DNA of 64,000 nucleotides from a virus (lineage: Duplodnaviria > Caudoviricetes). The stretch lies in the IMG/VR virus record IMGVR_UViG_3300034073_002120. One strand, written 5' to 3'. Made by a program: the position numbers and the translations under genes. The notes under the pieces are model-generated. The model ran no database searches and was not told the DNA's origin. It saw only the letters and a list, made by a program, of their open reading frames with translations. Of this stretch, positions 1 to 24,151 are shown piece by piece; the first letter of the stretch is position 1, and every line of letters starts with the position of its first letter.

Positions 1-684
1 CACTACTACTTTTTTATTTTTGAATTTACCCATTAAGACAGTATCACCAATATTGACATCCATCGTAATATCTTCATTTATTGATTCGCCTAACTTTGCT
101 AATTTAAGTGTAATGAATTTGTAGATTGTTTCATCAAATTTTGGATATGCTTTTAAGAAATTTTTTCTCTTTTCATCATCACTACCTTTACTTAACCAAT
201 TACGAACATCAGTTCCACTAACTGCGTTTGGTTGAGCAGGTGAAGCATAAACGTATCCTTTATCTTTATACCCAAATTCAATTTTACCTTTATATTTTTC
301 AAAGTATTTACCACCCAAACGTTGTTTGTCTTTTTCACCAACAACAGTTATAAATCCAGTTGTAGTTTCATCGAAATTTTTAAGTATTTCAGTAGGAGCA
401 TAAGGATTCTTAACCTCAACTATTTTGTTTGATGGAATACCAAACATTTTAGTCATTATGGTTTTCTTTTCCTTAAAATTAAATGGTGATTTTTGATTAT
501 CGGTTTTATTAGATGTACCGATATACACTCTATCCTTACCAAACTTTTTTACAAGTCCTTGATAAGTTGCAAGGTGACCTTTGTGAAATGGTTGAAATCT
601 ACCTGAATATACTACAACAAAATCTTTTAACTCCTCTTCGGTTAAAAGTATTTGTTCCATCAGATATTTACTTAATTCATTCAT
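1..684 (-). CDS. HxGH nucleotidyltransferase (cytidylyltransferase-like), 3' end outside window
   Basis: Not in the ORF track. Manual translation from ATG at 684: MNELSKYLMEQILLTEEELKDFVVVYSGRFQPFHKGHLATY...VVGEKD...VSGTDVR; GRFQPFHKGH is the HxGH motif. Frame stays open to position 1. Confidence 0.8.
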   Translation of the reverse strand, partial: MNELSKYLMEQILLTEEELKDFVVVYSGRFQPFHKGHLATYQGLVKKFGKDRVYIGTSNKTDNQKSPFNFKEKKTIMTKMFGIPSNKIVEVKNPYAPTEILKNFDETTTGFITVVGEKDKQRLGGKYFEKYKGKIEFGYKDKGYVYASPAQPNAVSGTDVRNWLSKGSDDEKRKNFLKAYPKFDETIYKFITLKLAKLGESINEDITMDVNIGDTVLMGKFKNKKVVV

Positions 685-706
685 AATTTACTGCTCTATC
701 TTAGTA

Positions 707-714
707 TATAAATA
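707..714 (-). promoter_or_regulatory. TATTTATA candidate phage late promoter
   Basis: Recurring intergenic motif, here 22 nt upstream of the ATG at 684. Confidence 0.45.
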
Positions 715-729
715 TGAATGTTTTCATAA

Positions 730-858
730 TTAGTGATTTTTGTAAACGAATGGGTCTCTCTTACGCAATTCTTCTAATTTCTTTTTATAAATTTCCATTT
801 GTTTCTTTTTGTTTCGTTTTTTCTTAAAATACTCAACAATTTTTTTAAATAAGTTCAT
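730..858 (-). CDS. small basic hypothetical protein (42 aa)
   Basis: MNLFKKIVEYFKKKRNKKKQ...LEELRKRDPFVYKNH. ATG at 858 overlaps the upstream stop and is preferred over the 963 start in the track. Confidence 0.55.
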   Translation of the reverse strand: MNLFKKIVEYFKKKRNKKKQMEIYKKKLEELRKRDPFVYKNH

Positions 859-1537
859 TTTTTCTATTTGGGTCTTTAAAGTAAATTCTATACACATATC
901 TATTCCAATTTTCAATTTTAGTAACCGAATGGGATATTCCTGGTGTATTATAATATGAATCAAAAATTACTAATTGATTTTTTTTCGGTTTATAGGTATA
1001 AATAATATTTTTACCGGTTTCATCATCATAAAAAAGAACATCACCGCCAATATCACCCTCTTGCATATCAGTACAATATAAAACTGCAGTACATAATCTA
1101 CTATTACCAGGTGATGTATCGGAATGAATTCTCATTAAATAACCAGGACCATATTCGATTACCGATTGATATTCTATTTCTATGTTGTTATTATTATAAA
1201 TCTCTTTAATGAGATTATGTATATTTTTTGTTATTGTTTCTCGTGTTTGATTACTTAACATTATATCAGAATCACGTCTTAATAATTCATAATCTGTATC
1301 TATATCATAATTTTTATGAAACATTTCTTTTTCAATATCAGTAAAATCTTTATAAAATTTTTGATAAATACCGAAAGTTGTATTTGTTATATTGTTTGTT
1401 ACTGCAAATCTAACTGATTGATTTCCTTCACTTTTTTGGTCTATTATTTCATTAGTAATAGTATCAAATATATTTGTATCTATGACATCATCATAGATAA
1501 AAAATCTTTTAGCAGTATCTTCATATATTTTTATCAT
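845..1537 (-). CDS. 2OG-Fe(II) oxygenase (prolyl-hydroxylase-like)
   Basis: YGPGYLMRIHSD (HxD), CTAVLY, GGDVLF, NQLVIF, HSVTK...R distal His/Arg. Confidence 0.8.
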   Translation of the reverse strand: MIKIYEDTAKRFFIYDDVIDTNIFDTITNEIIDQKSEGNQSVRFAVTNNITNTTFGIYQKFYKDFTDIEKEMFHKNYDIDTDYELLRRDSDIMLSNQTRETITKNIHNLIKEIYNNNNIEIEYQSVIEYGPGYLMRIHSDTSPGNSRLCTAVLYCTDMQEGDIGGDVLFYDDETGKNIIYTYKPKKNQLVIFDSYYNTPGISHSVTKIENWNRYVYRIYFKDPNRKNELI

Positions 1538-2985
1538 AATAAATGTATTTCTTCATTATTGTTAATAATTTTATTAAGATTTTTCATATAAATATCAGCT
1601 ACATATTCATCAGTATATTTTAATAAATGATTTCTATTATACTCTAATATATGAAACATTTGTTTCATCATTTCATCCCATTCTTCGGTTGATTTAGTTA
1701 TTAGTGTTTTTATCAATTCATATACTTTAATAATTCTATCACTATTATTTTCAATATCATCATAACTTTCATCCCAAAAATCACTAAATGTTTTAAATCC
1801 ATAATTTTTAAGAGTTTTAAGAATACCAGGTCTACCTACTAATACAAATGGATGTAAATGAGCTATTGGTTTTAATGTTTTTTCTGAAATATATGTTCCC
1901 ATTTCATAAAATAACGTTTCTGCTACAATACTAAAATATGTTTTTTCATATATATCTTTTGTTTCAAACGCAAATCCCCATACTGAATCTAAATCATCAT
2001 AATCTACAACTCTCTTTTTTATTTTTGTTAAATTATGAAACCCCGTACTCATTTTATTTTTATAATGTTGTGGTTCTATATATGGGTTTCCATCATATCC
2101 ACCACCATTAACCAAATCCAATCCCGCATCTGGTGTATATAACATTTCTCCCATATCAAACGATGAAAGAGTATTATTTAATAACCCATCATTTTGTAAT
2201 AAAGATAAAATAACCAATCGATGTGGTCGTAATCTACGATTTAACATCAATGCTTTCTTTTCCCTATTTTTTAATTCAAGTAAATCATTTGTTTTTGTAA
2301 TTGAATTTATATTAGTATGACCGTTAAAATTCATTTCACTTACATCGTTCAATAAATCACGAGTTTCTTTACTTTTAGCAAATATTGGCCATGGATAACA
2401 AGTTGTTTTTAATAAATTTTCTGGATTATTAGTTTTTACATAATAATTTTTATACAATTCAGTAGTATTTGCAGATGCTGTGATTATCAATATCTTAGAT
2501 GGGTTTATATCTAATCTATCACAAGTTTTATGAATATTATCAAATAGTTCTGGTTTAATATCACCCTCACTACTATAATCAAATATTAAAAAAAAGTTTT
2601 TGGCCTTTAAATTTTCTTTTGCACGAGCTGATATGAAATCAAACGTATGTTTATTTTGATGATATGTAAAATCATCGCCAGTTGATACTAATAAATTTCC
2701 GAATGGTGCGATTGTGTAATAATAGACATCTGATGGGTTTCCTATTGTGTTAGTATTATCATCATATTGTAAATCATTTATATGATGGTCTTTTATACAC
2801 ATATCACCAATATTTAAATAACAATCATATACTGCTATTTGTAAATATTTTTTTGAAAACGCAGTAATAAAATCATTATCAATAAAAAAATTATTATCCC
2901 ACAAATCACTTGTAAAATTATAATTCAATCCATTTGGAATAAATCCACTTGGACCTAAAAAATCAAAAACTCTATGTATTTGCAT
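1534..2985 (-). CDS. putative glycosyltransferase, GT10-like paralog family (copy 1)
   Basis: KALMLNRRLRPHR and FSIVAET...YISEKTLKPI...PFVLVG...GFKTFSDFWDESYD, shared with 3 other ORFs. Likely start MQIH at 2985 (track: 3027). Confidence 0.55.
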   Translation of the reverse strand: MQIHRVFDFLGPSGFIPNGLNYNFTSDLWDNNFFIDNDFITAFSKKYLQIAVYDCYLNIGDMCIKDHHINDLQYDDNTNTIGNPSDVYYYTIAPFGNLLVSTGDDFTYHQNKHTFDFISARAKENLKAKNFFLIFDYSSEGDIKPELFDNIHKTCDRLDINPSKILIITASANTTELYKNYYVKTNNPENLLKTTCYPWPIFAKSKETRDLLNDVSEMNFNGHTNINSITKTNDLLELKNREKKALMLNRRLRPHRLVILSLLQNDGLLNNTLSSFDMGEMLYTPDAGLDLVNGGGYDGNPYIEPQHYKNKMSTGFHNLTKIKKRVVDYDDLDSVWGFAFETKDIYEKTYFSIVAETLFYEMGTYISEKTLKPIAHLHPFVLVGRPGILKTLKNYGFKTFSDFWDESYDDIENNSDRIIKVYELIKTLITKSTEEWDEMMKQMFHILEYNRNHLLKYTDEYVADIYMKNLNKIINNNEEIHLL

Positions 2986-3523
2986 AATATAATTCAGGAT
3001 ATTCAACCAATAGATGAATACCAACATTTTCTATTGCATATTTATAACTTAACTCAACATCTTGCCAAGTTTTTAAATCATGGAATTCAATATTTGGACA
3101 CATTGATTTAAATTGCTCAGTATAATTCCCTTTATGTTGATGACCTGGGTCTAATGGTTTATCAGAACCTTTACCAACTCTAATTAGGATATGTGGATTC
3201 CAAGTACCATCTGACATTAATCCGATTTTATCTAAATGATTCACAAGTTGATTAGTTGCACATATTAAAAAATCCCAACGTGGATAAAAACTTACTACTT
3301 TATGGCCATTCATAGCCAATCCTAAACTCATTCCCATTTGAGTTTCTTCCATAACAGGAACTTCAATCATTTTTTCTTTTGGTAATCCTTCAATAGTCTT
3401 TGACATTGGATTTCCATAATATACAATTTGTTGTCCTATAAAAATAGTAGATTCATCTTCCATTATAGTCTTCATAGCACTTGTCAATGCATCTACATAT
3501 GGTGTAAATTGTGGTGAACTCAT
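2972..3523 (-). CDS. TPP enzyme beta subunit (transketolase/E1-beta pyrimidine-binding domain only)
   Basis: FIGQ, PVMEETQMGMSLGLAMNG, NQLVNH, GHQH; 183 aa with no C-terminal domain. Confidence 0.8.
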   Translation of the reverse strand: MSSPQFTPYVDALTSAMKTIMEDESTIFIGQQIVYYGNPMSKTIEGLPKEKMIEVPVMEETQMGMSLGLAMNGHKVVSFYPRWDFLICATNQLVNHLDKIGLMSDGTWNPHILIRVGKGSDKPLDPGHQHKGNYTEQFKSMCPNIEFHDLKTWQDVELSYKYAIENVGIHLLVEYPELYYANT

Positions 3524-3526
3524 AAC

Positions 3527-4519
3527 TTATGGTTTTGAATTTGGATTATATTCGTTTTTATGTTCTTTATACCATTCGATGGTTTCTTTCAATGCCTGTT
3601 TTAAATCTCTTTTTGGTTTCCAACCTGCATCGTTTATTTTTTTAGATGAAAGTAATCTAACCGGAATCATCGGTGCCTTATTATTTACAAATTCGATTGG
3701 ATTAGTGTTTCCTTCAATTTCCTTAATCCACCCTAACACTTCATTAACACTATAACCCTTTCCATAAGCAACATTAAAAATATTGTATGTATCGTTGTTC
3801 TCAGCAACCCAAATAAATCCATCGGCCATATCTTCTACGTGCAATAAATCTCTGATTTCAGAACCATCGCCCCATACCGGAATTGGATTTAAATTATCTG
3901 CTACTTTACGAATGTTTGCGGGTGTAACATGACACTTTTCAAAATCAAATTTATCATTTGGTCCGAATGCGTTTGAAGGTCTAACAATTAAACATTGCAT
4001 TGGATTGTGAATTTGATGTGAAAAATAATCACAAAGTAATTCACCATATCTTTTCATATTACCAACTGCTCCATATATTGGGAATGTAGGTGTTGCATGA
4101 ACATTTATATCTTCCGTACAAAACTCATCCTTCATATCTGGATAAACTGTATTAGATGAAATGAATAAGAATTTCGTAACCCCATTTCTCCAACTTTGTT
4201 CCATCAAATTTACATTCATTTCTACATTTGGAGTAACGTGTAATAGAGGATTTTCTTTTGTATCTAATGCATTTGATGTATTTGCTGCACAATGAAATAC
4301 TACATCTACACCTTCGGAAACTTCTGCACAAAACTTTGCATCTTGTAAATTTCCTTTATAAAACGCAACATCAGATGTTCCTACGAAATCGTTTCTTAAA
4401 TTTCTACTATGAGATGTTGCTCGTAGGTTTCTATAACCTTTCTCCCATAATAATCTTAATAGATGTGAACCAATAAATCCACTTGCACCAGTAACTAAAA
4501 TCTTATCCGTTTTTTTCAT
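3527..4519 (-). CDS. NAD-dependent NDP-sugar epimerase/reductase (GDP-fucose synthase-like extended SDR)
   Basis: TGASGFIG, FHCAA, FISS, RPSNAFGPND, VWGDGSEIRDLLHVED. Confidence 0.85.
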   Translation of the reverse strand: MKKTDKILVTGASGFIGSHLLRLLWEKGYRNLRATSHSRNLRNDFVGTSDVAFYKGNLQDAKFCAEVSEGVDVVFHCAANTSNALDTKENPLLHVTPNVEMNVNLMEQSWRNGVTKFLFISSNTVYPDMKDEFCTEDINVHATPTFPIYGAVGNMKRYGELLCDYFSHQIHNPMQCLIVRPSNAFGPNDKFDFEKCHVTPANIRKVADNLNPIPVWGDGSEIRDLLHVEDMADGFIWVAENNDTYNIFNVAYGKGYSVNEVLGWIKEIEGNTNPIEFVNNKAPMIPVRLLSSKKINDAGWKPKRDLKQALKETIEWYKEHKNEYNPNSKP

Positions 4520-4522: not shown

Positions 4523-5488
4523 TTATTTTTTGTATTCGTTTAAATAATAATCTATCGTATGTTTCAATCCTGTCTTTAAGGATATTTTTTGTTTGATTCC
4601 AAATGATTCTGCACGTTCCGTACTCATCAATCGCTTCTCATCTCCATTTGGTTTAGTTGGGTCCCATTCAATTTGAACTTTAACTCCGTACATTTCTTCA
4701 TAGATTTCTACAAGAGTTTCTGCAAGTTCTTTGATTGTTACTCCAGTTCCACTACCTAAATTTATTGGTTGCGTAATACCTTGTTCGTATGCTTGAATAA
4801 TTCCATCTGCAACATCACCTGCATAGATAAAATCTCTAATAGGTGAACCATCTCCCCAACACACTAATGGATGTTCTTTCTCACCAAATAATCGTTTAAT
4901 TAAAGATGCGATGACGGTAGATTCTGGACCGAAATTATCATGTCTACCATAAATGTTTGCAGGTCTTACAATTGATGCTTTATTCCAATCATATGATACT
5001 GAATATACTTCTGCTTGAAGTTCTCCAAGTCTTTTTGCCCAACCTGCGTATTTATCTTTTTCTGATGGGAAGGTTTTCCAAACATCATCTTCGTAAAATA
5101 CTTCCGCCGGTTGATATACTCCAACTGTCGATGTGTAAACATACCATTCTACATTTTCTAAACGTGCAGCTTCCATCATATTGGTATTAAACTGCAACAT
5201 CGGTACAAAATAATCTGCAGGTTGTTCTGCTGCTCTTTTTGGAGAACCCTTTACACCTGCAATGTGGAAAATAACATCTTGTCCTTCCACTACTCTTTTA
5301 CAATTTTTGAATTCTCTTAAATCAGCTTTAATAAACTGATAATCACTCTCTTTGTATTTTTCTAATTGATTTAATGGTTCTACAATATCTACGGCGGTTA
5401 CGATTGCACCTCTTTGTAAACATTTTTCTACCATATAATTACCAACCAATCCGTTGGCACCCGTTATCAAAACCTTTTTACCATTCAT
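4523..5488 (-). CDS. NAD-dependent NDP-sugar epimerase/reductase (GDP-fucose synthase-like extended SDR)
   Basis: TGANGLVG, FHIAG, YTSTVGVY, RPANIYGRHDNF, WGDGSPIRDFIY. Confidence 0.85.
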   Translation of the reverse strand: MNGKKVLITGANGLVGNYMVEKCLQRGAIVTAVDIVEPLNQLEKYKESDYQFIKADLREFKNCKRVVEGQDVIFHIAGVKGSPKRAAEQPADYFVPMLQFNTNMMEAARLENVEWYVYTSTVGVYQPAEVFYEDDVWKTFPSEKDKYAGWAKRLGELQAEVYSVSYDWNKASIVRPANIYGRHDNFGPESTVIASLIKRLFGEKEHPLVCWGDGSPIRDFIYAGDVADGIIQAYEQGITQPINLGSGTGVTIKELAETLVEIYEEMYGVKVQIEWDPTKPNGDEKRLMSTERAESFGIKQKISLKTGLKHTIDYYLNEYKK

Positions 5489-7576: not shown

Positions 7577-8003
7577 AAACTTTAAAACAAGGTATTCCTA
7601 ATTCAACCCACATATCGATTATTCGTTGGTCATCATCGTATGCACAAAATACATCTGATTTAATGTGCGTTTTATACATCTTCTTTTTGTAGATTGGTGC
7701 TTTTAAAAAATTATCTTCCCAACTTCGCATAATTAATTGGTCATATTCTATATCATATTTTTTTAACCATTCAATCGTAACTCCTCTAACTGACTCCGGT
7801 CGACCTGTAAGTAGTATAACCTCAAAACCATCTTTCTTATATCTTTTTGCTAAATCAATCATAGGATAAAATGGGTCATCCATCAAAATATTATTAGGAA
7901 TATGTGCTGCTTCCCAATCTATTTTTCCATTTGGCATTGTTGCTAGAGCAAATCGTATGTTACTATTACATAATGTATTATCTATATCAATTATTACTTT
8001 CAT
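7563..8003 (-). CDS. HAD-superfamily phosphatase (PNKP-phosphatase-like)
   Basis: IIDIDNT (DxDxT), LLTGR, K and YDD motifs. Confidence 0.8.
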   Translation of the reverse strand: MKVIIDIDNTLCNSNIRFALATMPNGKIDWEAAHIPNNILMDDPFYPMIDLAKRYKKDGFEVILLTGRPESVRGVTIEWLKKYDIEYDQLIMRSWEDNFLKAPIYKKKMYKTHIKSDVFCAYDDDQRIIDMWVELGIPCFKVYVID

Positions 8004-17870: not shown

Positions 17871-18062
17871 TTATTTACCTTCATCAATATATTTCTTCTT
17901 CCACTCATATAGATAGTGTTCTATTCTTGGACCCCACTCATCTTTATCGATTTCTTCAAACCATAAAGTAAGTGCATCTAATGAATTACCTATCTTTTCT
18001 AAAGCTTTAACTTTACGTTCTTCAAGCAATTGAGATGCTTCGTTTTGTGTTTTATCTGCCAT
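17871..18062 (-). CDS. hypothetical protein (63 aa)
   Basis: ORF fills the gap; TAAGTT-ATG leader and TATTTATA motif upstream. Confidence 0.65.
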   Translation of the reverse strand: MADKTQNEASQLLEERKVKALEKIGNSLDALTLWFEEIDKDEWGPRIEHYLYEWKKKYIDEGK

Positions 18063-18096: not shown

Positions 18097-18945
18097 TTAT
18101 ATTTTGGTTATTATTTTACTCAATCGATTCCAATATGTATAATCGAAAAAATTACTTTTTGTATTCGTCATTTTTTCAATAAAAAACTTAGAATTTTCAA
18201 CATCTATTTTAAAATCGTTTGATTCTATTTCATTATACATTAGTTCATATTCGGATGAAAATGCATATTCTTTTTTAACATCTGCAACTTGTTTTATTCT
18301 ATCTACACAAGTAGAATCCCATTTAAAATGATGTACTTGTATTAATCCATCACCTCTACCAACTGGATAACGTTTTGGATGTGATGTACCCCAACTATTT
18401 TTCCCATCCTCTACAATTGCATAATGTTGACCAGGGGTTACATCAACATATCCTTTCATTATACAAACTTTATTAGGACAAGCCCCACTTAGTGGATGTC
18501 TAAAAAATCCAGCAAGTGGAAACTTTTCCCAAATATTAGAGTCTTTCTCAACGATTGGAAATTCTCCATTTTCTCCTATCCTATCTATGAATCCACCAGT
18601 TATAAAATCCCAACCATTTTCTTCGCATTCTGAAATAAGTTCTTTGATTGGTTTTGGATAAATGTGAAATTCATCATCGTCTGAAACTACCCACCATTCG
18701 TTTGGTTTGGTTCGTTTAATTTCGTTATATAATTCGGTTACTTTTTCCCAATTGAATTTTGGTTCAGTAACTACTTTAATTGGCGTAATTCCTAATTTTT
18801 TAACTTCATCTAATATACCATCGGTTTCTGTCTGTCTATAAACAACGACGTGTATTTCATCAACTAATGGTTTGTAATGATTAATCATATGACCCAACAT
18901 AGTTGTGTTATGACCTACTACTGTAACTAAATTTATTTTTGACAT
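18097..18945 (-). CDS. GT2-like glycosyltransferase (GT-A fold)
   Basis: LVTVV...MINHY, WWVVSDDDEF (DxD-like), GQH, VHHFKW. Confidence 0.7.
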   Translation of the reverse strand: MSKINLVTVVGHNTTMLGHMINHYKPLVDEIHVVVYRQTETDGILDEVKKLGITPIKVVTEPKFNWEKVTELYNEIKRTKPNEWWVVSDDDEFHIYPKPIKELISECEENGWDFITGGFIDRIGENGEFPIVEKDSNIWEKFPLAGFFRHPLSGACPNKVCIMKGYVDVTPGQHYAIVEDGKNSWGTSHPKRYPVGRGDGLIQVHHFKWDSTCVDRIKQVADVKKEYAFSSEYELMYNEIESNDFKIDVENSKFFIEKMTNTKSNFFDYTYWNRLSKIITKI

Positions 18946-19703
18946 CTTCTAACTAAAGTTAATCCGGTTGATGCTGGTTTATTTTTTTGAATTCCAAAAT
19001 TGAAAAGGTCAAATACTTCCCAATCTGAATTATCTTTAAGTTCTTTTGTGAATTTAATTGGGCCGTACCAATCATCAAAATCACCTCTATCTTTTACTTC
19101 ATCCGTAACGATGTAACTATCTGCATAATTTGGGTCGGTATCGTGAATTGAAATAATGGCGTTTGGAGAAAGTATTTGTGAATATAACTCAAAATCTTCT
19201 TTTACATTTTCATATGAATGTCCTGCATCTATATGTAAATAATCAATCTTAATATCGTTCAATACAAAGAAATTATGAAAGGCAGCTGCAGTTGTACTAC
19301 CAATAATACGTGGACAGAAAAAACGTCTAAAAAAAGATTCTTCTCTGAACCAATCTACATTACCTCCGATTCCATTCATTGCATCAACAACATAAGTAAC
19401 ACCAATATCACCCCAACTATAATCAGGGTTTCCATCAAATATTCCTTGTTGATGTAAATCGTATCTAGCTTGTGTCATTAATCTCGGAATAAATCCACCA
19501 CCACTACCTAAACATACACAAGTTTTTGCTCTCATATATTGTATAAGAGAATATACAATTAAACCGTCTCCCAAATGTAAATCAGTAGCACCATGTGACC
19601 AACGATATGGAACTGGCCTAACTTCTACTTCATGTGATTCGTTAAACTCCTGATTATTTGTCAGATTGTTTTTTAAGTATTCTAAATCTTGTAATGAAAC
19701 CAT
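18933..19703 (-). CDS. class I SAM-dependent methyltransferase (Methyltransf_24-like)
   Basis: VCLGSGGG, IDYLHIDAGHSYENVKEDF, IISIHDT. Confidence 0.85.
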   Translation of the reverse strand: MVSLQDLEYLKNNLTNNQEFNESHEVEVRPVPYRWSHGATDLHLGDGLIVYSLIQYMRAKTCVCLGSGGGFIPRLMTQARYDLHQQGIFDGNPDYSWGDIGVTYVVDAMNGIGGNVDWFREESFFRRFFCPRIIGSTTAAAFHNFFVLNDIKIDYLHIDAGHSYENVKEDFELYSQILSPNAIISIHDTDPNYADSYIVTDEVKDRGDFDDWYGPIKFTKELKDNSDWEVFDLFNFGIQKNKPASTGLTLVRRCQK

Positions 19704-19895
19704 AAACGAATTGTATTTTCCGAAATTACGGAGGTATGCTTAGATAAGCTTTATATAAAGTATAATATTAATAAAATAGTATAAGTTATAGTGTAGTAGT
19801 TAGTAGCTTTGTAGCTAATCCCCCTACCCCCTTTGTATATAAATATATAAAAATATACAAAACGTAAAAAAAAGTGAAAAAATAAATATTTGGAA

Positions 19896-20933
19896 TTATG
19901 ATAAAATTGCTGTACGGACTTTATCAATCCACTCCTCTTTATTATCAAATTTTTGCATATATTTTTTAAGATTTGACCAATTTTGGAATCGTTCTTCTTG
20001 TGAATCTTTTAATATTTGTTTTACACATTCATCGAACTCATTTTTAGTTGAAACTCTATATTTGTATTCAATTTCCGGTGCCCAATCTTTATTAATTATA
20101 GGTAATTTACCATAATCTACTGCCTGAAATATTGAATAACCAAATGGTTCTTTGAAATAAGCACCATGAAATATACCCCAATTTTTTAACATAAAAAAAT
20201 GATGAATAGTAGGGTCCCACTGAAATAAATCGATTCCATTTAACGAATATGTTGTAGTATCTCTTAAATTTTTTACATCAAATTGGTTAGTTAATACATA
20301 ACCTTTATGGTCATTCATCCAATGCAAACATTTACGTGATTCAGCACGAGATGCAAATCCAATTTTACCATTATCTATGTGAGTTGTAAGTGGTATATTA
20401 TTTTTGAATTCGTAAAAATTTGGAACGTTGTATGTGTAATTTGGAAATTCATCGATTAATTGAGTTTTATTATTTCCAATCCATATTCTTCGTTTAAATG
20501 TAGCTAGATATTCATCATAAAATTCTACATCTACTTTTGTTCCAAATTGTAATCGATTTATTTCTGGATTATTATCAATAACTTCTACCATTTCTCTAGC
20601 ATAAGCATGAACAAAAACTGTTCCAAATTTATCTTCCCAATGCCAAAGATGTGGACGATTGTGGTAATGTGGATGTAGAACATGAATTACTTCACTCTCT
20701 TCTAACCAACGATTTGTTTTTTCAGTATCATCGTAATGAAAATGAAATTGTAATCCTTTTGGTAAAGATTTTTCTTCAAAATTAATAGGTCTTTTAGAAT
20801 CGATTAATAATCTCCATTCCTTTTTTACAGGTAGAGTAGGCCAAACTAATTCTAAAAAATAATTAGTCCATATATCAGACCCACCTTGTATAGTGTTTCC
20901 TGCACCAGTTGTAACTAATAGTTTATACCCCAT
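19896..20933 (-). CDS. GT-B glycosyltransferase (GT4-like)
   Basis: GGSDIW N-terminal loop, IGFASRAESRK, EPFGYSIFQAVDYGKLPII. Confidence 0.75.
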   Translation of the reverse strand: MGYKLLVTTGAGNTIQGGSDIWTNYFLELVWPTLPVKKEWRLLIDSKRPINFEEKSLPKGLQFHFHYDDTEKTNRWLEESEVIHVLHPHYHNRPHLWHWEDKFGTVFVHAYAREMVEVIDNNPEINRLQFGTKVDVEFYDEYLATFKRRIWIGNNKTQLIDEFPNYTYNVPNFYEFKNNIPLTTHIDNGKIGFASRAESRKCLHWMNDHKGYVLTNQFDVKNLRDTTTYSLNGIDLFQWDPTIHHFFMLKNWGIFHGAYFKEPFGYSIFQAVDYGKLPIINKDWAPEIEYKYRVSTKNEFDECVKQILKDSQEERFQNWSNLKKYMQKFDNKEEWIDKVRTAILS

Positions 20934-20957
20934 ATATATAAATATATTATTTATACA

Positions 20958-21983
20958 TTATTCAAAAATAGCAGAAGCACAATTTCTACATATTGTATTA
21001 TATGATTCTTCCACTTTTTTTATATGCTCATCAGTTCCCCAAAAATCTTTTAATGTTTGTGTTTTAAAATCACCAAATTGTACTTCCATATCATAATCAT
21101 TGCAGCATAGAAATGCTTTACCTGCTGCATTTACATGAATCCATCCAACCGGTCTTCCACCAACCTCCCTACCATTACCACAGCCAATTACTTTTTTAGT
21201 CTCATCTCCTCCTTGTAAATTTCGTTTTATTGCTTTTTTATTAGTCATTATATTATCTAATAAACCGGCTCTATCAATTAAGGATGGCACATCGAATATT
21301 TGCAAACCAGGAAATAATTCTCTTGCTTTATTTGTTTGGGTTCGTAATTCACCGGTATTTGGGTCTAAATCCATATCGATGGGAAATTCTGGTCCTTTAT
21401 CTAACCAACCACCTCTATCACTAAAAGAATATTCGTTAGAACCATTTACCTGAATTGAAAATGATTTATTCTGAACCATGTCAGATAATTTTTCCATTGC
21501 GTATTTTACATTTGAAATTAGTTTATCAAATTGTTTAATATTAATGCCACTTCTCAAACTCCAAATATCAGGTTCAAATGCTGGAATATTCAAACATATA
21601 CCATTTACTACGCCCTTATATTTTACAATTAAATCTATTTTTTCGGAAGTCAAAGGAACTCCATTAGATAATACCATAAAACACAATCTATATTTCTGAC
21701 ATATTTTTAATAATTCTTCAAAATGTGGATATAATAAAATTTCATTATAATGTGCCGTATAAAATCCTCCAAAATTTTTGTGAACTAAGCCATCTGGTTT
21801 TTCTCTTTCATCTATTAGATTTTTAATTATTTTTTCTAATAATTCAGGACTCATCACTTCTTTACCATTTGTTGGATTACCTTTGTATTTTACCGGACAA
21901 AACCAACATTTTGCATTACATACTCCATATGGGTCTAATTGCATTTGATGGATTTTATAAGTTTGAAATTGCTCTTTTACCAT
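20958..21983 (-). CDS. radical SAM/SPASM protein
   Basis: CNAKCWFC, LSNG, C-terminal GKAFLCCND...CRNC. Start set at 21983 (TAATG overlap with upstream stop) rather than 22028. Confidence 0.85.
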   Translation of the reverse strand: MVKEQFQTYKIHQMQLDPYGVCNAKCWFCPVKYKGNPTNGKEVMSPELLEKIIKNLIDEREKPDGLVHKNFGGFYTAHYNEILLYPHFEELLKICQKYRLCFMVLSNGVPLTSEKIDLIVKYKGVVNGICLNIPAFEPDIWSLRSGINIKQFDKLISNVKYAMEKLSDMVQNKSFSIQVNGSNEYSFSDRGGWLDKGPEFPIDMDLDPNTGELRTQTNKARELFPGLQIFDVPSLIDRAGLLDNIMTNKKAIKRNLQGGDETKKVIGCGNGREVGGRPVGWIHVNAAGKAFLCCNDYDMEVQFGDFKTQTLKDFWGTDEHIKKVEESYNTICRNCASAIFE

Positions 21984-22960
21984 TATACTAATATTGATTT
22001 TTTTCCTACTTTTTGAATAAGTTGCCAATATTCATATGATGTAGTTCCTTCATTTATATTAATAGTTGCACCATATGGTAATTTATCCGTAAAATCTGAT
22101 TTATAAAATAATCCAGATGTTGAATTGACAACTCCTGCATTATGAAATATATTACATTCATCCCAAAGTTTATCTGCAGATGTACCCCAACTAAATTCTA
22201 AGTTTTCATGACAGATAGTTTCATATCCAAGTTTCCAACCATTCCACAAAACTGCCCACATATCTGCACACCATATTTGCAATGGATGATATGGAATTCG
22301 CTTTGGTGAATCAAGTGAATGGGTATGTCTATCTAATTGAATTTTTTCGTTATTTAATTCCGTTATATTGAAAAATAAATTTTCAGAATCGTCTTCTACT
22401 TTTTGCCAATAGTTTTCATCAATTCCCTTCATTATATATTGTGCCCCGATTGCGTTTAATTCGTTAGATTTGACTATCTCTTTATCTATGTCTACAATTT
22501 CACACATCTTATCTAATACATCTTCACCTTTACTGATAATGTAATCGTGTCCAATATACCAACGTGTATCACTACCATACCATTTTTCATCATCAATCAT
22601 TTCATCTGTAATCCATTCAGAAATTGGGTTTGTAAAAACTATATCACAATCATGATAGAAGATAGTTTCTTCTTTTAATTCTGGTCTATTTTTCCAATGC
22701 TGTTTTAATGCATTTGGTCTACTAGATGAAATATAATTTTTAGTTGTTCTAATATCATTATAAAAAAAGAATCTAACGTAATTATACTTTCCAGCTAGTT
22801 TAATCCATTCATCTGATATTAAGTCATTTTGTTTTATCCCAATAATATCTATATTATTTGGGTTTACTCCCATTTCTATAAAATTATGTATCATAACTTC
22901 AACCTGCCATGCGTAATAAAAAATAGCAGGTTGTGCACAAACAAAACGTAAATTTTTCAT
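21983..22960 (-). CDS. HPAT/SERGT-like (GT95/GT96-like) peptide O-glycosyltransferase
   Basis: YYAWQVEVMIHNF resembles plant HPAT Y..WQ..VM..F and SERGT YFDWQ...MHSF; also RPNALKQHW, YHDCD (DxD), CADMWAV. Confidence 0.6.
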   Translation of the reverse strand: MKNLRFVCAQPAIFYYAWQVEVMIHNFIEMGVNPNNIDIIGIKQNDLISDEWIKLAGKYNYVRFFFYNDIRTTKNYISSSRPNALKQHWKNRPELKEETIFYHDCDIVFTNPISEWITDEMIDDEKWYGSDTRWYIGHDYIISKGEDVLDKMCEIVDIDKEIVKSNELNAIGAQYIMKGIDENYWQKVEDDSENLFFNITELNNEKIQLDRHTHSLDSPKRIPYHPLQIWCADMWAVLWNGWKLGYETICHENLEFSWGTSADKLWDECNIFHNAGVVNSTSGLFYKSDFTDKLPYGATININEGTTSYEYWQLIQKVGKKSILV

Positions 22961-22972
22961 ATTTAATTATTT

Positions 22973-24151
22973 TTAAAGAATATCACATGCACCTCCTGAT
23001 GTGAAACGTCCACTTGAATTAATTGTTCCATATACTGCTCCATCTGAATATGTTGCTCCACCACCATCGAATGGTGAACCATCATAATTGTAGTAGAATC
23101 TACCACTTATCAATTCAGAATATAAATTTGAATATACTGTTGTACTATATGAACCATATTGTGCATCTGAACAAGCACTTCCACCTGAACCTGTACTACC
23201 TTGTGCAATATTAATTGAGTAATTCCATCCACTAGGTGCTTCAGTTGTTGTAGTAGTTGTAGTTGTAGTTGTTGCAGGTGCAACATAACAACTTAATGTA
23301 GTTGATTTTTCGGTATAATTACCAACACTATCCGTCAATCTAACCCACCAAGTTCCATCACTTAATGATGACCAATATTTAGATGATGCACCTCCTAATA
23401 TTTCAGGTTCTGCGTATGATAATGCAGCCTGAGAATCTGCAATTCTAACTTGACTATAAGAACCATTACCACCAGAGAAATTATATATCGTTACAGTGCC
23501 ATTGTAACCAGATGCATCTGGACAACTACTAGCTATTCCAAAATTAACTGCTGATAGTGTTGTAGTTGTTGTTGTAGTTGTTGTTGTAGTTGTTGTAGTA
23601 CATCCTGTAACTAATACACTTCTCATAGAAGTTCTACCACCATCATCTGCTAAAATAATATAATAAGTTTGACCGTTTGTTAAACCAGTAAAATCATAAT
23701 TTGATGTATTAAATGGAATAGTAATAGGACTACTTATAGAAGTATTTGCTTCAGTAGTTCCAATTTTAACATACGACCAACTATTATTACCACCACCAAA
23801 ATTATTTATTCGTATTGTACCTGTATCTCCGGTACATTCTAATAAAAATGCATTGAATGTAATTGCACCAAATGTTGTAGTAGTAGTTGTAGTAGTAGTT
23901 GTAGTTGTCGTAGTGGTAGTAGTAGTTGTAGGTGCAGCAGTAGTCGTTGTTGTAGTTGTTGGTGCGGTAGTAGTCGTTGTTGTAGTTGCACCACCTACAC
24001 TTCTTCCTCTAAACTCATCCATACCATGTGGTTTTGATGAAATACCATATGCAATTGCAGCAGTATCCATATCAATCTGAGCAGTAGCTGTTATTCCTCT
24101 ATCTGTATTAAAATCTCTAAATGATATTTCGCCGGTTGATGGAAGTGCCAT
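22973..24151 (-). CDS. Thr-rich mucin-like probable virion protein with two Cys-bounded beta modules
   Basis: N-terminal MALPSTGEISF typical of genes following phage tail fibres; three poly-Thr tracts; two SprB-like modules (C..GT..I.NF.GGN.S.S...L..G..Y/W...L.D..G). Confidence 0.75.
   Translation of the reverse strand: MALPSTGEISFRDFNTDRGITATAQIDMDTAAIAYGISSKPHGMDEFRGRSVGGATTTTTTTAPTTTTTTTAAPTTTTTTTTTTTTTTTTTTTFGAITFNAFLLECTGDTGTIRINNFGGGNNSWSYVKIGTTEANTSISSPITIPFNTSNYDFTGLTNGQTYYIILADDGGRTSMRSVLVTGCTTTTTTTTTTTTTTLSAVNFGIASSCPDASGYNGTVTIYNFSGGNGSYSQVRIADSQAALSYAEPEILGGASSKYWSSLSDGTWWVRLTDSVGNYTEKSTTLSCYVAPATTTTTTTTTTEAPSGWNYSINIAQGSTGSGGSACSDAQYGSYSTTVYSNLYSELISGRFYYNYDGSPFDGGGATYSDGAVYGTINSSGRFTSGGACDIL
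23873..23986 (-). repeat. poly-Thr (ACN)n coding tract with TTTTTTTAP repeats
   Basis: About 38 codons, mostly Thr; degenerate third positions indicate selection at the protein level. Confidence 0.9.

What the first reader, a model, noticed from the sequence alone, without database searches (positions are those of the whole stretch)
1..24151. ~23 kb phage-encoded glycan biosynthesis and decoration island attached to the tail-fibre operon
Seen: about 25 contiguous co-oriented genes directly downstream of the tail fibre. They include 8 or more predicted glycosyltransferases (GT95/96-like, GT4, GT2-like, two GT7, three GT10-like), NDP-sugar enzymes (RmlC, three SDRs, TPP alpha/beta), tailoring enzymes (methyltransferase, 2OG oxygenase, three radical SAM, PRT plus HAD) and a cytidylyltransferase. 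Established: such enzyme sets build and modify complex glycans. Inference: the phage runs its own multi-step glycosylation pathway. TATTTATA motifs inside the island match those upstream of structural genes, suggesting late expression and a virion target rather than DNA or the host surface.
Basis: partly seen in the sequence, partly recalled or inferred. Interest (0 to 1): 0.8.

Follow-up and report, generated by a model that had tools for sequence, protein, structure and literature searches.

The report
Phage tail-fibre glycosylation gene island
A roughly 262-kb freshwater or subsurface jumbo phage carries, directly after its tail-fibre gene, a threonine-rich "mucin-like" protein, a plant-type protein sugar-transferase and about 21 further soluble sugar-building enzymes, so it most likely sugar-coats its own fibre proteins on a scale not yet described for a phage.

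Summary
Window 845-24151 contains 24 co-oriented minus-strand genes plus one 63-aa ORF, directly downstream of a 1710-aa tail fibre.

Confirmed enzymes:
- By Pfam: two GT7+LamG transferases, three SDRs, RmlC, split TPP E1 alpha/beta, three radical SAM enzymes, a methyltransferase, a 2OG oxygenase and a HAD.
- By fold: the 325-aa gene is closest to plant SERGT1/HPAT (GT96/GT95), and the three paralogs are GT10-like GT-B enzymes.
- Weak or unconfirmed: "GT4" and "GT2-like" are weak, and "PRT" is unconfirmed.
- The cytidylyltransferase is the N-terminal domain of a giant flanking protein.

What the comparisons add:
1. The block beginning at 19896-20933 follows a tail-fibre homolog in 52 of 70 relatives, in some with overlapping stop and start codons.
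2. The slot between fibre and block holds a modular protein whose linkers co-vary with the next enzyme. Poly-Thr linkers go with the HPAT-like transferase, Pro-rich linkers with a prolyl 4-hydroxylase, and no linker with neither.
3. No island protein has a transmembrane helix. There is no flippase, polymerase, priming transferase, TET-like oxygenase or cytosine methyltransferase.
4. TATTTATA is a positional late-promoter-like motif.

The best reading is late, cytoplasmic glycosylation of fibre-associated virion proteins. No glycan has been observed. This scan has already found the poly-Thr/HPAT-like pair on other DNA. The large elaboration island and the linker/enzyme swapping are the new parts.

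The parts
24151..29283 (-). Tail fibre, 1710 aa, with a C-terminal S74 intramolecular chaperone. It anchors the island. Its stop overlaps the next gene's ATG.
   Evidence: PHROG tail-fibre families, E 3.7e-29. PF13884 at E 3.4e-14. Homolog upstream of the island in 52/70 relatives.
22973..24151 (-). Fibre-adjacent modular protein, 392 aa. It has a conserved 54-aa N-terminal domain, three poly-Thr linkers (residues 55-93, 185-198, 291-303), two paralogous ~90-aa Cys-bounded domains and a C-terminal domain. It is the proposed O-glycosylation acceptor.
   Evidence: Translation. It is the only protein with T-runs in the window. Domain and N-terminal homologs in relatives. Linker type varies between relatives.
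21983..22960 (-). HPAT/SERGT-like GT-A glycosyltransferase (phrog_4417), with an invariant HDCD (DxD) at residues 103-106. It is the proposed initiating peptidyl-Thr O-glycosyltransferase.
   Evidence: AF2 pLDDT 94.9. Best fold hits are SERGT1 (E 1.5e-10) and HPAT1-3/RDN/PLENTY (TM 0.61-0.63). GT8-type retaining GT-A in the PDB. phrog_4417 at E 4.8e-61. A poly-Thr ORF lies directly upstream in 48/76 viral loci against 2.9% background, and in 7/7 cultured phages inspected.
20958..22028 (-). Radical SAM/SPASM enzyme. The likely ATG is at 21983, overlapping the HPAT-like stop as TAATG. It co-occurs with the poly-Thr/HPAT-like core and is fused to the HPAT-like gene in one relative.
   Evidence: PF04055 and PF13186. 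Gene call of 341 aa. Sequence at the junction. 668-aa fused ORF in L001. Present next to the core in 15 loci.
19896..20933 (-). First gene of the conserved block. Probably a GT-B glycosyltransferase (GT4/AGT-like), but this is a lead only.
   Evidence: Atlas feature neighbours are viral Glycos_transf_1 and AGT clusters, score 0.96-0.97. No Pfam or PDB sequence hit. It lies directly after the tail fibre in 23 relatives.
18933..19703 (-). Methyltransf_24 methyltransferase, probably a sugar O-methyltransferase.
   Evidence: PF13578 at E 2.3e-10. In relative L041 the same domain (also matching TylF) is fused to a Glycos_transf_1 domain.
18097..18945 (-). GT2-like GT-A protein (weak).
   Evidence: PF13704 at 26.7 bits against a cut-off of 27.5. 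Conserved in nearly all relatives.
17871..18062 (-). 63-aa ORF preceded by TATTTATA 19 nt upstream. A small ORF occupies this position in most relatives.
16429..17859 (-). GT7 (beta-1,4-Gal/GalNAc-transferase-like) catalytic domain fused to a LamG/ConA-like domain, copy b.
   Evidence: PF13733 at 4.4e-19, PF02709 at 1.5e-19, PF13385 at 8.9e-8.
14963..16429 (-). GT7 catalytic domain fused to a LamG/ConA-like domain, copy a.
   Evidence: PF02709 at 4.9e-20, PF13733 at 4.1e-17, PF13385 at 5.2e-13. 264 viral contigs carry relatives.
13504..14937 (-). Twitch-domain radical SAM enzyme. It is expanded to tandem arrays in some relatives.
   Evidence: NF033640 at 360 bits against a cut-off of 170. Arrays of 4-7 paralogs in L126, L129, L134.
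12770..13507 (-). Conserved 245-aa protein of unknown fold, last gene of the conserved proximal block.
   Evidence: No Pfam or PHROG hit. No significant similarity to the LamG region of GT7a. Conserved position.
11373..12788 (-). GT10-like GT-B glycosyltransferase, paralog c.
   Evidence: C-terminal domain paralogous to 5478-6620 at E 3e-21. Atlas neighbours are all viral.
10406..11371 (-). NDP-sugar epimerase/dehydratase/reductase, SDR3.
   Evidence: PF01370 at 2.2e-36 and RmlD_sub_bind at 6.8e-17. No NCBIfam equivalog reached.
9838..10422 (-). RmlC-like NDP-4-keto-6-deoxyhexose 3,5-epimerase.
   Evidence: PF00908 at 1.1e-40. TIGR01221 at 117 bits, below its 155.75 cut-off.
9210..9848 (-). 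Short TPP-dependent E1 alpha-like subunit.
   Evidence: PF00676 at 1.7e-13. TIGR03182 at 3.9e-24.
8000..9205 (-). Radical SAM enzyme 1, part of a conserved sub-cluster with the HAD, the 318-aa protein and the TPP subunits.
   Evidence: PF04055 at 4.1e-12. 75% identity to its ortholog in a 245-kb relative.
7563..8003 (-). HAD-type phosphatase.
   Evidence: PF25109 at 1.6e-17. 95% identity in the relative L091.
6620..7576 (-). Conserved 318-aa protein of unknown function.
   Evidence: No Pfam or PHROG hit. 443 environmental homologs, none annotated.
5478..6620 (-). GT10-like GT-B glycosyltransferase, paralog b, with an invariant E275-K276 in an S-E-K motif.
   Evidence: AF2 pLDDT 91.4. Best PDB hits are H. 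pylori alpha-1,3-FucT 2nzw (E 2e-5) and FUT9, then Gtf3/GtfC. Invariant columns.
4523..5488 (-). NDP-sugar SDR2.
   Evidence: PF01370 at 7.5e-39. Best NCBIfam match is GDP-fucose synthase, below cut-off.
3527..4519 (-). NDP-sugar SDR1.
   Evidence: PF01370 at 5.4e-48. The ortholog in L091 (81% identity) is fused to a 2OG-FeII_Oxy_3 domain.
2972..3523 (-). Short TPP E1 beta-like subunit (pyrimidine-binding domain only).
   Evidence: PF02779 at 2.5e-5. NF006667 at 9.5e-12.
1534..3027 (-). GT10-like GT-B glycosyltransferase, paralog a.
   Evidence: C-terminal domain paralogous to the other two at E 1e-22 to 2e-29.
845..1537 (-). 2OG-Fe(II) oxygenase, the last gene of the island proper. Probably a sugar-tailoring or protein hydroxylase.
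   Evidence: PF13640 at 1.9e-11. No close solved P4H. A 2OG-SDR fusion exists in relative L091.
1..684 (-). N-terminal 228 aa (nucleotidyltransferase-like domain) of a large late protein that runs off the window. It is a conserved distal flank, not clearly part of the pathway.
   Evidence: PF01467 at 1.2e-8. 1204-1513 aa in relatives, directly after the core where the island is absent. TATTTATA lies 22 nt upstream.
29303..29310 (-). Late-promoter-like TATTTATA 19 nt before the tail-fibre ATG. Equivalent copies in the island are at 20937-20944, 19838-19845, 18081-18088 and 707-714.

Best explanation
The island is a late-expressed, entirely cytoplasmic factory that glycosylates fibre-associated virion proteins.

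Shown by the sequence and comparisons:
- A tail-fibre gene is translationally coupled to a modular protein with three poly-Thr linkers.
- The next gene is a soluble GT-A enzyme whose nearest structural relatives are the plant peptidyl-Ser/Hyp O-glycosyltransferases.
- About 21 further soluble enzymes follow: five well-supported extension glycosyltransferases (two GT7+LamG, three GT10-like) and two weaker candidates (GT2-like, GT-B-like), together with NDP-sugar enzymes (three SDRs, RmlC) and tailoring enzymes (split TPP E1-like pair, three radical SAM enzymes, a methyltransferase, a 2OG oxygenase and a HAD).

Inferred steps:
1. The HPAT-like enzyme puts the first sugar on Thr of the poly-Thr linkers.
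2. The SDR/RmlC/TPP/radical-SAM/HAD set converts host NDP-sugars into unusual donors, possibly deoxy, C-branched or chain-extended and methylated.
3. The GT7, GT10-like and other transferases extend the chain.
4. The product is a mucin- or extensin-like glycoprotein mounted with the tail fibre.

The glycan part is mosaic between relatives, like an O-antigen locus, which suggests diversifying selection on an exposed surface. In relatives without the poly-Thr/HPAT-like pair, the conserved block must use another acceptor, most simply the fibre itself or a Pro-rich version of the modular protein.
For: Enzyme content.

Fold assignments.

Poly-Thr and HPAT-like pairing:
- 48 of 76 viral loci have a T-rich ORF directly upstream, against 2.9% background.
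- 7 of 7 cultured phages inspected show it, in head or tail modules. They infect hosts of six genera.
- Among GT7a-bearing relatives the HPAT-like gene occurs only where the linkers are poly-Thr.

Linker and enzyme co-variation in one protein family:
- poly-Thr linkers with the HPAT-like gene: 7 of 8 (the eighth, L001, has the gene fused to the rSAM);
- Pro/TP-rich linkers with a P4H-like gene: 7 of 9 (the L112 enzyme matches B. anthracis P4H at E 3.7e-28);
- no linker with neither enzyme: 6 of 6.

Linkage of the island to the fibre: 52 of 70 relatives, with stop/start overlap in some.

Late-type promoter motif.

Soluble, carrier-free machinery: no TM helix or signal peptide in any island protein, and no coding-strand terminator within 1-20 kb.

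Fusions in relatives that tie parts together:
- HPAT-like fold with GT7C in Bacteroidota proteins;
- HPAT-like gene with the rSAM/SPASM gene;
- 2OG with SDR1;
- Glycos_transf_1 with Methyltransf_24/TylF.

Variable GT content in the same slot.
Against: - No glycan, virion proteome or transcript data exist for this phage. No RNA run holds the region.
- The large block is tied to the tail fibre, not to the poly-Thr/HPAT-like pair. Most relatives have the block without that pair, so 'the island extends the HPAT-initiated glycan' is an inference for this genome only.
- The relatives belong to one phage clade, so conserved synteny with the fibre is partly shared ancestry.
- The modular protein's N-terminal domain has no match in cultured phages, so its place in the virion is unproven.
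- The HPAT-like family does not match Pfam HPAT by sequence.
- Donor sugars cannot be named: no NCBIfam equivalog cut-off is reached except by the twitch rSAM.
Confidence: 0.58

Rival explanations
1. Two independent modules sit side by side. The poly-Thr protein and the HPAT-like enzyme (with the rSAM/SPASM) form a self-contained monoglycosylation unit. The large block from 19896 leftwards glycosylates something else on the virion, most simply the tail fibre itself, and does not extend the Thr-linked sugar.
For: - Most relatives have the block directly after the fibre with no poly-Thr protein and no HPAT-like gene.
- The HPAT-like/poly-Thr pair occurs alone in hundreds of phages, including small Firmicutes phages.
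- The block has its own promoter-like motif at 20937.
Against: - Bacteroidota proteins combine an HPAT-like fold with a GT7C domain.
- The slot between fibre and block also holds the Pro-rich/P4H alternative, which suggests an acceptor cassette feeding a common extension block.
- The fibre shows no obvious acceptor tract.
Confidence: 0.2
2. The island remodels host envelope glycans (LPS, capsule or cell-wall polymers) during infection. This is the usual reading of glycosyltransferase clusters in large cyanophages.
For: - Large cyanomyoviruses carry up to 13 glycosyltransferases plus NDP-sugar epimerases and RmlC, read as cell-wall synthesis and modification genes (PMC12801897).
- The enzyme classes here (SDR, RmlC, GT2/GT4-like) are those of O-antigen loci.
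Against: - None of the island proteins has a TM helix, and there is no flippase, polymerase, ABC exporter, polyprenyl-phosphate priming transferase or oligosaccharyltransferase.
- Expression signals are of the structural-gene type, and in relatives the first gene is coupled to the fibre gene.
- Late surface remodelling brings little benefit to a lytic phage.
Confidence: 0.1
3. The glycosyltransferases hypermodify phage DNA bases with sugars, as in T4 glucosylation or the 5hmC glycan clusters described in phage metaviromes.
For: - Phage DNA-glycan clusters can lie next to structural genes (bioRxiv 10.1101/2023.12.21.572611).
- The 345-aa protein has T4 AGT-family clusters among its language-model neighbours, and T4 AGT/BGT appear among weak fold hits of the GT10-like model.
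- Other first-stage notes report a base-modification operon elsewhere in this genome (untested).
Against: - The island has no cytosine methyltransferase, TET/JBP-type dioxygenase or hydroxymethylase. Its 2OG enzyme is PF13640 and its methyltransferase is Methyltransf_24 (TylF-related in a relative).
- LamG lectin-like domains on the GT7 enzymes, eight candidate transferases and the Thr/Pro linker-enzyme co-variation fit a protein acceptor.
- The putative DNA-modification operon lies about 70 kb away beside the replication genes.
Confidence: 0.07
4. The island makes a free or secreted glycoconjugate or glycosylated small molecule, for example a modified peptide or oligosaccharide released at lysis, rather than decorating the virion.
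For: - Three radical SAM enzymes (one SPASM, one twitch), a TPP pair and a methyltransferase resemble natural-product tailoring sets.
- Tandem rSAM arrays in relatives recall RiPP-like diversification.
Against: - There is no exporter, no leader-peptide-like small precursor and no protease.
- The island is tightly coupled to the fibre gene and to a large modular protein with matched linkers.
Confidence: 0.05

Closest known systems
Mycobacteriophage virion O-glycosylation (Che8, Rita, Corndog, Myrna; Freeman et al. 2023, Cell Host Microbe 31:1216, PMID 37329881; cited through PMC11256854, and from my own knowledge)
   Same: Phage-encoded glycosyltransferases act on the phage's own structural proteins. 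The acceptor is a Ser/Thr-rich tract. The result is a glycan coat on the particle.
   Different: - There, a few transferases use host sugar donors and act on C-terminal tails of capsid and tail-tube subunits.
- Here, a dedicated fibre-adjacent modular protein carries internal poly-Thr linkers.
- The initiating enzyme is of a different type (HPAT/SERGT-like, phrog_4417).
- About 21 further genes include a sugar-nucleotide tailoring pathway.
- No experimental glycan data exist for this system.
Plant and algal extensin-type O-glycosylation: prolyl 4-hydroxylase, HPAT (CAZy GT95) and SERGT1/SGT1 (GT96)
   Same: - The 325-aa enzyme's best fold matches are SERGT1 and HPAT1-3/RDN/PLENTY.
- The acceptors are repetitive, low-complexity hydroxy-amino-acid or proline tracts in rod-like proteins.
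- Relatives with Pro-rich linkers carry a genuine P4H homolog instead.
   Different: - No sequence-level match to Pfam HPAT.
- The phage enzyme is soluble and cytoplasmic, not a Golgi type II membrane protein.
- The likely acceptor is Thr, not Hyp or Ser.
- The donor sugar is unknown.
Giant-virus glycosylation gene clusters (Mimivirus fibril glycans, chlorovirus capsid glycans; from my own knowledge, not read here)
   Same: A virus-encoded multi-gene cluster makes rare sugars and attaches them to surface fibrils or capsid, independently of host glycosylation machinery. Cluster content is specific to each clade.
   Different: Those viruses infect eukaryotes. This is a tailed phage, the cluster is anchored to a tail-fibre gene, and the acceptor/initiator cassette is of another type.
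Serine-rich-repeat adhesin glycosylation in Gram-positive bacteria (GtfA/B, Gtf3/GtfC and further transferases)
   Same: A Ser/Thr-rich fibrillar protein is glycosylated stepwise in the cytoplasm by several soluble transferases. Gtf3/GtfC structures are among the hits of the GT10-like model.
   Different: Those systems are bacterial, coupled to an accessory Sec export system and act on Ser-rich repeats. No homologous operon organisation is seen here, and the fold similarity is at the general GT-B level (TM 0.39-0.47).
Glycosyltransferase and NDP-sugar gene clusters of large cyanomyoviruses (S-SCSM2R, S-SCSM1, P-SSM2; PMC12801897)
   Same: Jumbo or near-jumbo myoviruses with many glycosyltransferases (including a GT10), NDP-sugar epimerases and RmlC.
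   Different: Those clusters were read as host cell-wall or DNA modification and no acceptor was identified. Here a candidate acceptor and a matched initiating enzyme sit between the fibre and the cluster.

Membership tests
CAZy GT95/GT96 (HPAT / SERGT1), Pfam PF23452 | Sequence match to the family profile (PF23452 HPAT) | tested here: not met
   No Pfam hit for the window protein at E up to 10. 0 of 26 family members hit PF23452 at E up to 1.
CAZy GT95/GT96 (HPAT / SERGT1), Pfam PF23452 | GT-A fold with a DxD motif, and HPAT/SERGT as the nearest structural relatives | tested here: met
   Model pLDDT 94.9. The top nine AFDB-SwissProt hits are SERGT1 and HPAT-family proteins (E 1.5e-10 to 7.6e-8, TM by query 0.54-0.63), ahead of GT8. 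H103-D104-C-D106 is invariant. The Atlas structure search also reaches HPAT clusters.
CAZy GT95/GT96 (HPAT / SERGT1), Pfam PF23452 | Transfers a sugar to a peptidyl hydroxyl (Hyp or Ser) in repetitive tracts | not testable with these tools
   Only genomic association with poly-Thr tracts is available.
Phage virion O-glycosylation (mycobacteriophage type) | Phage-encoded glycosyltransferase plus a Ser/Thr-rich tract on a virion protein | tested here: met
   The GT and the poly-Thr protein are adjacent and coupled to the tail fibre. In cultured relatives the tracts sit on major capsid or major tail proteins.
Phage virion O-glycosylation (mycobacteriophage type) | Glycans demonstrated on purified virions | not testable with these tools
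   Uncultured phage. No proteomic or glycan data.
CAZy GT10 fucosyltransferases (Pfam PF00852) | Sequence match to PF00852 | tested here: not met
   No Pfam hit for any of the three paralogs. The family profile finds no PDB sequence.
CAZy GT10 fucosyltransferases (Pfam PF00852) | GT-B fold closest to solved GT10 enzymes, with a conserved (S/T)-E-K donor-site motif | tested here: met
   H. pylori FucT 2nzw/2nzx/2nzy and human FUT9 are the top hits (E 2e-5 to 1e-3, probability 0.96-1.0, TM about 0.4). E275-K276 is invariant in 30 sequences. The role of the motif comes from my own knowledge of HpFucT.
CAZy GT7 (beta-1,4-galactosyltransferase-like) | Both Glyco_transf_7N and Glyco_transf_7C above Pfam gathering scores | tested here: met
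   Both proteins score 62-71 bits on 7N and 7C.
Phage DNA sugar-hypermodification clusters (MT + 5mYOX/TET + GT) | Cytosine methyltransferase and a TET/JBP-type dioxygenase (or a dNMP hydroxymethylase) next to the GT | tested here: not met
   The only 2OG enzyme is PF13640/PF13661 and the only methyltransferase is PF13578. Family definition taken.
Lipid-carrier-dependent surface polysaccharide loci (O-antigen / capsule type) | Priming polyprenyl-phosphate transferase, flippase or ABC exporter, and polymerase (all membrane proteins) | tested here: not met
   No such Pfam domains. No convincing TM segment in any island protein: the two windows above 1.6 lie inside Rossmann and TPP folds.
Prolyl 4-hydroxylase (for the window's 2OG enzyme at 845-1537) | Close sequence similarity to characterised P4Hs | tested here: not met
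   It matches the broad 2OG-FeII_Oxy_3 family but no solved P4H at E up to 0.01. By contrast, the L112 enzyme in a relative does match one.

The most novel reading that the evidence does not exclude
Jumbo phages of this clade build their own mucin/extensin-like glycoprotein appendage on the tail fibre.

The system would have two parts. The first is a swappable 'acceptor plus initiator' cassette: poly-Thr linkers with an HPAT/SERGT-like transferase, or Pro-rich linkers with a prolyl 4-hydroxylase and other GT-A enzymes. The second is a hypervariable 10-20-kb glycan-extension and sugar-tailoring locus that evolves like a bacterial O-antigen locus and gives phage 'glycotypes'.

That would be a phage-encoded equivalent of plant cell-wall glycoprotein chemistry. 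It would also be the largest virion-glycosylation pathway known in a bacterial virus.
Probability: 0.4. Interest if true: 0.85.

Novelty: new variant of a known kind. Interest (0 to 1): 0.72.

Why it matters
Glycosylated phage particles have so far been shown only for a few mycobacteriophages that use two or three transferases. This island suggests something larger in environmental jumbo phages.

- **Investment.** About 9% of a 262-kb genome goes to making unusual sugars and attaching them near the host-recognition organ. The glycan part is mosaic and fast-evolving.
- **Possible consequences.** If true, virion glycans could affect adsorption, host range, stability, aggregation, and recognition by defence or grazers. 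That would add a "glycotype" layer to phage diversity.
- **Reinterpretation of known clusters.** The many glycosyltransferase clusters in large marine and freshwater phages are usually filed as host-surface or DNA modification. They could be re-read as virion glycosylation.
- **Testable now.** The initiating enzyme family (phrog_4417, annotated "unknown function") occurs with poly-Thr tags on capsid or tail proteins in cultured Lactobacillus, Enterococcus, Staphylococcus, Clostridium and Chryseobacterium phages.
- **Biochemistry.** The conserved sub-cluster of split TPP E1, radical SAM, HAD, the 318-aa protein and an SDR is a candidate route to a new sugar.

Tried and rejected
- **Cultured relatives.** A near-identity DNA search of the island against 50,697 phage records found nothing. 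tblastn with a neighbouring 387-aa protein gave only two weak hits. No close cultured relative exists.
- **Whole genome.** It is not held, so the rest of the genome could not be searched for further acceptors or DNA-modification genes.
- **Sequence-level family assignment.** Pfam at E up to 10, PHROGs, and single-sequence and profile searches of the PDB failed for the HPAT-like, GT10-like, 345-aa, 318-aa and 245-aa proteins. Only fold comparison or language-model neighbours gave leads.
- **Rejected: the 245-aa protein as a free LamG domain.** Best local E-value against GT7a is 0.13.
- **Rejected: the 318-aa protein as a phosphoribosyltransferase.** There is no support in any library or among its 443 homologs.
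- **Rejected: the window's 2OG enzyme as a prolyl hydroxylase.** It has no match to solved P4Hs.
- **Modular protein's N-terminal 54 aa.** No match in cultured phages.
- **Distant HPAT-like candidate.** A DxD-containing 276-aa ORF next to the P4H in L097 is not related to the HPAT-like family (hhalign probability 0.1%).
- **PHROG annotation of upstream genes in environmental HPAT-like loci.** Uninformative.
- **Published proteome of Lactobacillus phage 521B.** It could not be mapped reliably to the Ig-like/PTTV-repeat gene.
- **RNA features.** No Rfam family or tRNA in the window.
- **Expression.** No RNA-seq run holds the region.
- **Literature.** I found no description of an HPAT-like/poly-Thr phage system or of a fibre-linked glycan island. 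Freeman et al. 2023 is not held in the library.

Full report
**What is in the window**

All genes that tile the 64-kb window lie on the minus strand, in DNA of about 30% G+C. The window belongs to a large myovirus.
- Baseplate wedge proteins, lysozyme-type tail proteins and a 1710-aa tail fibre with an S74 chaperone end are recognisable.
- An identical copy of one island protein lies on a 261,829-bp contig.
- Near-identical DNA occurs in subsurface and freshwater metagenomes from several studies.
- The fibre gene stands apart from the baseplate block. Upstream of it lie an SbcC-like ATPase and a primase.

**The observation**

From the fibre's stop codon (24151) down to 845 there are 24 contiguous co-oriented genes plus a 63-aa ORF. 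Most are separated by a few bases or overlap. No terminator-like site occurs on the coding strand within 1-20 kb.

- two GT7 catalytic domains, each fused to a LamG/ConA-like domain;
- three extended SDRs of the NDP-sugar epimerase/dehydratase type and an RmlC;
- a split, shortened TPP E1 alpha/beta pair;
- three radical SAM enzymes, one with a SPASM domain and one a full-length NF033640 twitch-domain protein;
- a Methyltransf_24, a 2OG-FeII_Oxy_3 and a HAD phosphatase.

Eight proteins had no Pfam match even at E 10. I modelled two of them.
- The 325-aa protein (pLDDT 95) is a GT-A with an invariant HDCD motif. Its best matches among reviewed proteins are plant SERGT1 (GT96, E 1.5e-10) and the HPAT/RDN/PLENTY hydroxyproline arabinosyltransferases (GT95, TM 0.61-0.63), ahead of GT8 enzymes. 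Among solved structures it matches GT8-type retaining enzymes.
- The 380-aa protein (pLDDT 91) is a GT-B. Its best solved matches are H. pylori alpha-1,3-fucosyltransferase and human FUT9, both GT10. Its two paralogs share the C-terminal donor domain and differ in the N-terminal domain.

The rest of the list fares less well.
- "GT4" (19896-20933) rests only on language-model neighbours.
- "GT2-like" sits just under Pfam's cut-off.
- "PRT" has no support.
- The "cytidylyltransferase" at 1-684 is the N-terminal domain of a protein that is 1204-1513 aa in relatives. It follows the core directly where the island is missing, so it is a flank.

**The promoter-like motif**

TATTTATA is not over-represented overall: 22 copies against 20.5 expected. 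Its placement is what matters. Ten of the 15 coding-strand copies lie in the 4.9% of the window that is intergenic, and at least seven of these lie 18-24 nt before a start codon.
- Copies precede the fibre, the baseplate and other large structural genes.
- In the island, copies lie at 707 and 18081. Further copies lie at 20937 (3 nt before its ATG) and at 19838 (134 nt before its ATG).
- No copy precedes SbcC or primase.

In the closest relatives the extended form ATATATTTATATA is conserved just upstream of the 19896-20933 ortholog. In more distant relatives that gene instead overlaps the end of the fibre gene. The island is therefore expressed with the fibre.

**The poly-Thr protein and the HPAT-like enzyme**

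The gene coupled to the fibre (22973-24151) encodes the only protein in the window with Thr runs. Its layout is as follows.
- A 54-aa N-terminal domain.
- Three poly-Thr linkers, with runs of up to 19 Thr.
- Two paralogous Cys-bounded domains of about 90 aa.
- A C-terminal domain.

The HPAT-like gene follows 12 nt later. Its stop overlaps the start of the rSAM/SPASM gene as TAATG. In one relative the two are a single 668-aa ORF.

The HPAT-like family has 358 loci in IMG/VR. In 48 of 76 evaluable loci the ORF directly upstream is Thr-rich, against 2.9% of other ORFs. These Thr-rich proteins have several unrelated architectures.

The family (phrog_4417, "unknown function") also occurs in 77 cultured-phage records. 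In all seven that I inspected, a poly-Thr tract lies immediately upstream and belongs to a head or tail protein:
- Chryseobacterium MA9V-3;
- Clostridium phiCTP1 (end of the probable major tail protein);
- Enterococcus Planchet (a Thr-rich frame just after the capsid gene);
- Staphylococcus SA2 (end of the major tail protein plus an overlapping poly-Thr frame);
- Lactobacillus 521B, Semele and iLp84.

Other agents of this scan reached the same pairing on other DNA. My analysis was independent of theirs but is not the first.

**What the large island is tied to**

A search with GT7a found 264 viral contigs. The 80 kept share 59-85% identity, and many come from contigs of 200-290 kb. Gene maps show the following.
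- A proximal block is conserved: 345-aa protein, Methyltransf_24, GT2-like, small ORF, GT7b, GT7a, twitch rSAM, 245-aa protein.
- The distal half is mosaic, with different SDRs, 2OG enzymes and GT10-like paralogs, and in some relatives tandem arrays of four to seven twitch-rSAM paralogs.
- A fibre homolog lies upstream of the block in 52 of 70 loci. It is directly adjacent in 23 and has one gene between in 15.
- The HPAT-like gene is present in only the two or three loci whose intervening protein has poly-Thr linkers.

The island is therefore anchored to the fibre, not to the HPAT-like/poly-Thr pair.

**Linker and enzyme co-variation**

When a gene follows the fibre, it belongs to one family, defined by the N-terminal motif MALPxSGxIS..NTDR. 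Its linkers differ between relatives:
- poly-Thr;
- (TP)n, PPTPA, P16 or PNVTPQ repeats;
- no linker.

The Pro-rich versions are followed by 2OG oxygenases. The one I tested is a genuine prolyl 4-hydroxylase homolog (E 3.7e-28 to B. anthracis P4H; it also matches Chlamydomonas and PBCV-1 P4H). These versions also have DxD/DxH-containing ORFs nearby.

Counting distinct proteins:

| Linker type | HPAT-like gene | P4H-like gene | Neither |
|---|---|---|---|
| poly-Thr (8) | 7 (the eighth, L001, is the fusion case) | 0 | 1 |
| Pro/TP-rich (9) | 1 | 7 | 1 |
| none (6) | 0 | 0 | 6 |

This is the strongest evidence that the linkers are substrates of the adjacent enzymes. It also suggests that the slot between fibre and block works as an "acceptor plus initiator" cassette.

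**Other links between parts**
- A 245-kb relative keeps the HAD (95% identity), the 318-aa protein (83%), SDR1 (81%), rSAM1 (75%) and TPP alpha/beta (69%), while its GT10-like genes are only 25-36% identical. This points to one conserved sugar route with variable transferases.
- There, SDR1 is fused to a 2OG domain, which suggests the 2OG enzymes act on sugars.
- In L041 a Glycos_transf_1 domain is fused to a Methyltransf_24/TylF domain and is followed by a TibC/GT9-like protein. In L063 a GT32-like and two GT2 genes occupy the slot.
- Bacteroidota proteins combine an HPAT-like fold with a GT7C domain.

**Mechanism and rivals**

None of the island proteins has a transmembrane helix or signal peptide. 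There is no flippase, polymerase, exporter, priming transferase or oligosaccharyltransferase. This argues against remodelling of host envelope glycans, the usual reading of such clusters in large cyanophages.

There is also no cytosine methyltransferase or TET/JBP dioxygenase, the hallmark of phage DNA-glycan clusters. I therefore commit to late, cytoplasmic, stepwise glycosylation of fibre-associated virion proteins (confidence 0.58).
- In this genome the HPAT-like enzyme initiates on the poly-Thr linkers.
- The island makes donor sugars and extends the chain.

The main rival (0.2) is that the two modules are independent and the block decorates the fibre or another virion protein. Host-surface (0.1), DNA (0.07) and free-product (0.05) readings are less likely.

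What remains inferred: the acceptor residue, the donors, the glycan structure, and the presence of the 392-aa protein in the virion.

**Comparison and novelty**

The closest demonstrated system is mycobacteriophage virion O-glycosylation (Freeman 2023; cited through and from my own knowledge). The closest enzymology is plant extensin-type modification by P4H, HPAT and SERGT. The closest in scale are giant-virus glycan clusters.

The 325-aa enzyme fails sequence membership of GT95/96 but meets the fold criterion, so I call it "HPAT/SERGT-like" and not a member. I found no paper describing this system. I rate it a new variant of a known kind: virion glycosylation with a new initiator/acceptor cassette and an unusually large, O-antigen-like elaboration locus.

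Noticed in passing
L112:3369-3917, L142:2660-3712, L097:1997-3196, L140:3017-3592, L096:3475-4047: In relatives, the fibre-adjacent modular protein has Pro-rich linkers ((TP)n, PPTPA, P16). It is followed by prolyl-4-hydroxylase-like 2OG oxygenases, and the L112 enzyme matches solved P4Hs at E 3.7e-28. This looks like a phage version of extensin-type proline hydroxylation.
   Followed up: partly
L001:8640-10646: The HPAT-like glycosyltransferase and the radical SAM/SPASM enzyme form a single 668-aa ORF in this relative. It may be a real fusion or an assembly indel. In the window the two genes overlap as TAATG.
   Followed up: partly
L126, L129, L134 (downstream of the GT7a match): Tandem arrays of four to seven paralogs of the twitch-domain radical SAM gene (window 13504-14937) occur inside the island of some relatives.
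   Followed up: no
L097 and L112, C-terminal ends of the 539-aa modular proteins: These proteins end in sequences resembling the first block of Hint/intein domains (C-x-x-x-G-[ST]-E-I-x-M-x-D-G-S-x-K-L-I-E). This hints at autoprocessing or ligation of the fibre-adjacent protein. Another first-stage note reports tandem Hint domains elsewhere in this genome.
   Followed up: no
window 1-684, and L013:12752-17290, L041:15117-18728: A giant late protein (1204-1513 aa in relatives) has only an N-terminal nucleotidyltransferase-like domain recognisable. It forms the conserved distal flank of the glycan slot and has its own TATTTATA motif 22 nt upstream.
   Followed up: partly
window 61903-62859, 61021-61638, 63110-63826, 57828-59558: The window also encodes an S-adenosylmethionine synthetase, which would supply the three radical SAM enzymes and the methyltransferase. 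It further encodes a peptide deformylase, a GNAT acetyltransferase and a Nol-type carbamoyltransferase (E 6.8e-118), which could carbamoylate a sugar.
   Followed up: no
window 39448-44412: A 1654-aa protein with a weak LamG/ConA-like match is preceded by the late-type motif. It lies between the fibre region and the baseplate genes and is probably another fibre or adhesin.
   Followed up: no
L085:3773-4000 (Enterococcus phage Planchet) and L086:3667-3930 (Staphylococcus phage SA2): Poly-Thr coding frames without their own ATG follow or overlap the ends of the major capsid and major tail genes in another frame. This suggests programmed frameshifting that gives a fraction of subunits a Thr-rich tag.
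   Followed up: no
window 19704-19895, 35834-36281, 56279-56947: Three unusually long gaps (192, 448 and 669 nt) have no convincing ORF. The first starts with GGGGGTAGGGGG. No Rfam family or tRNA was found in any of them.
   Followed up: partly
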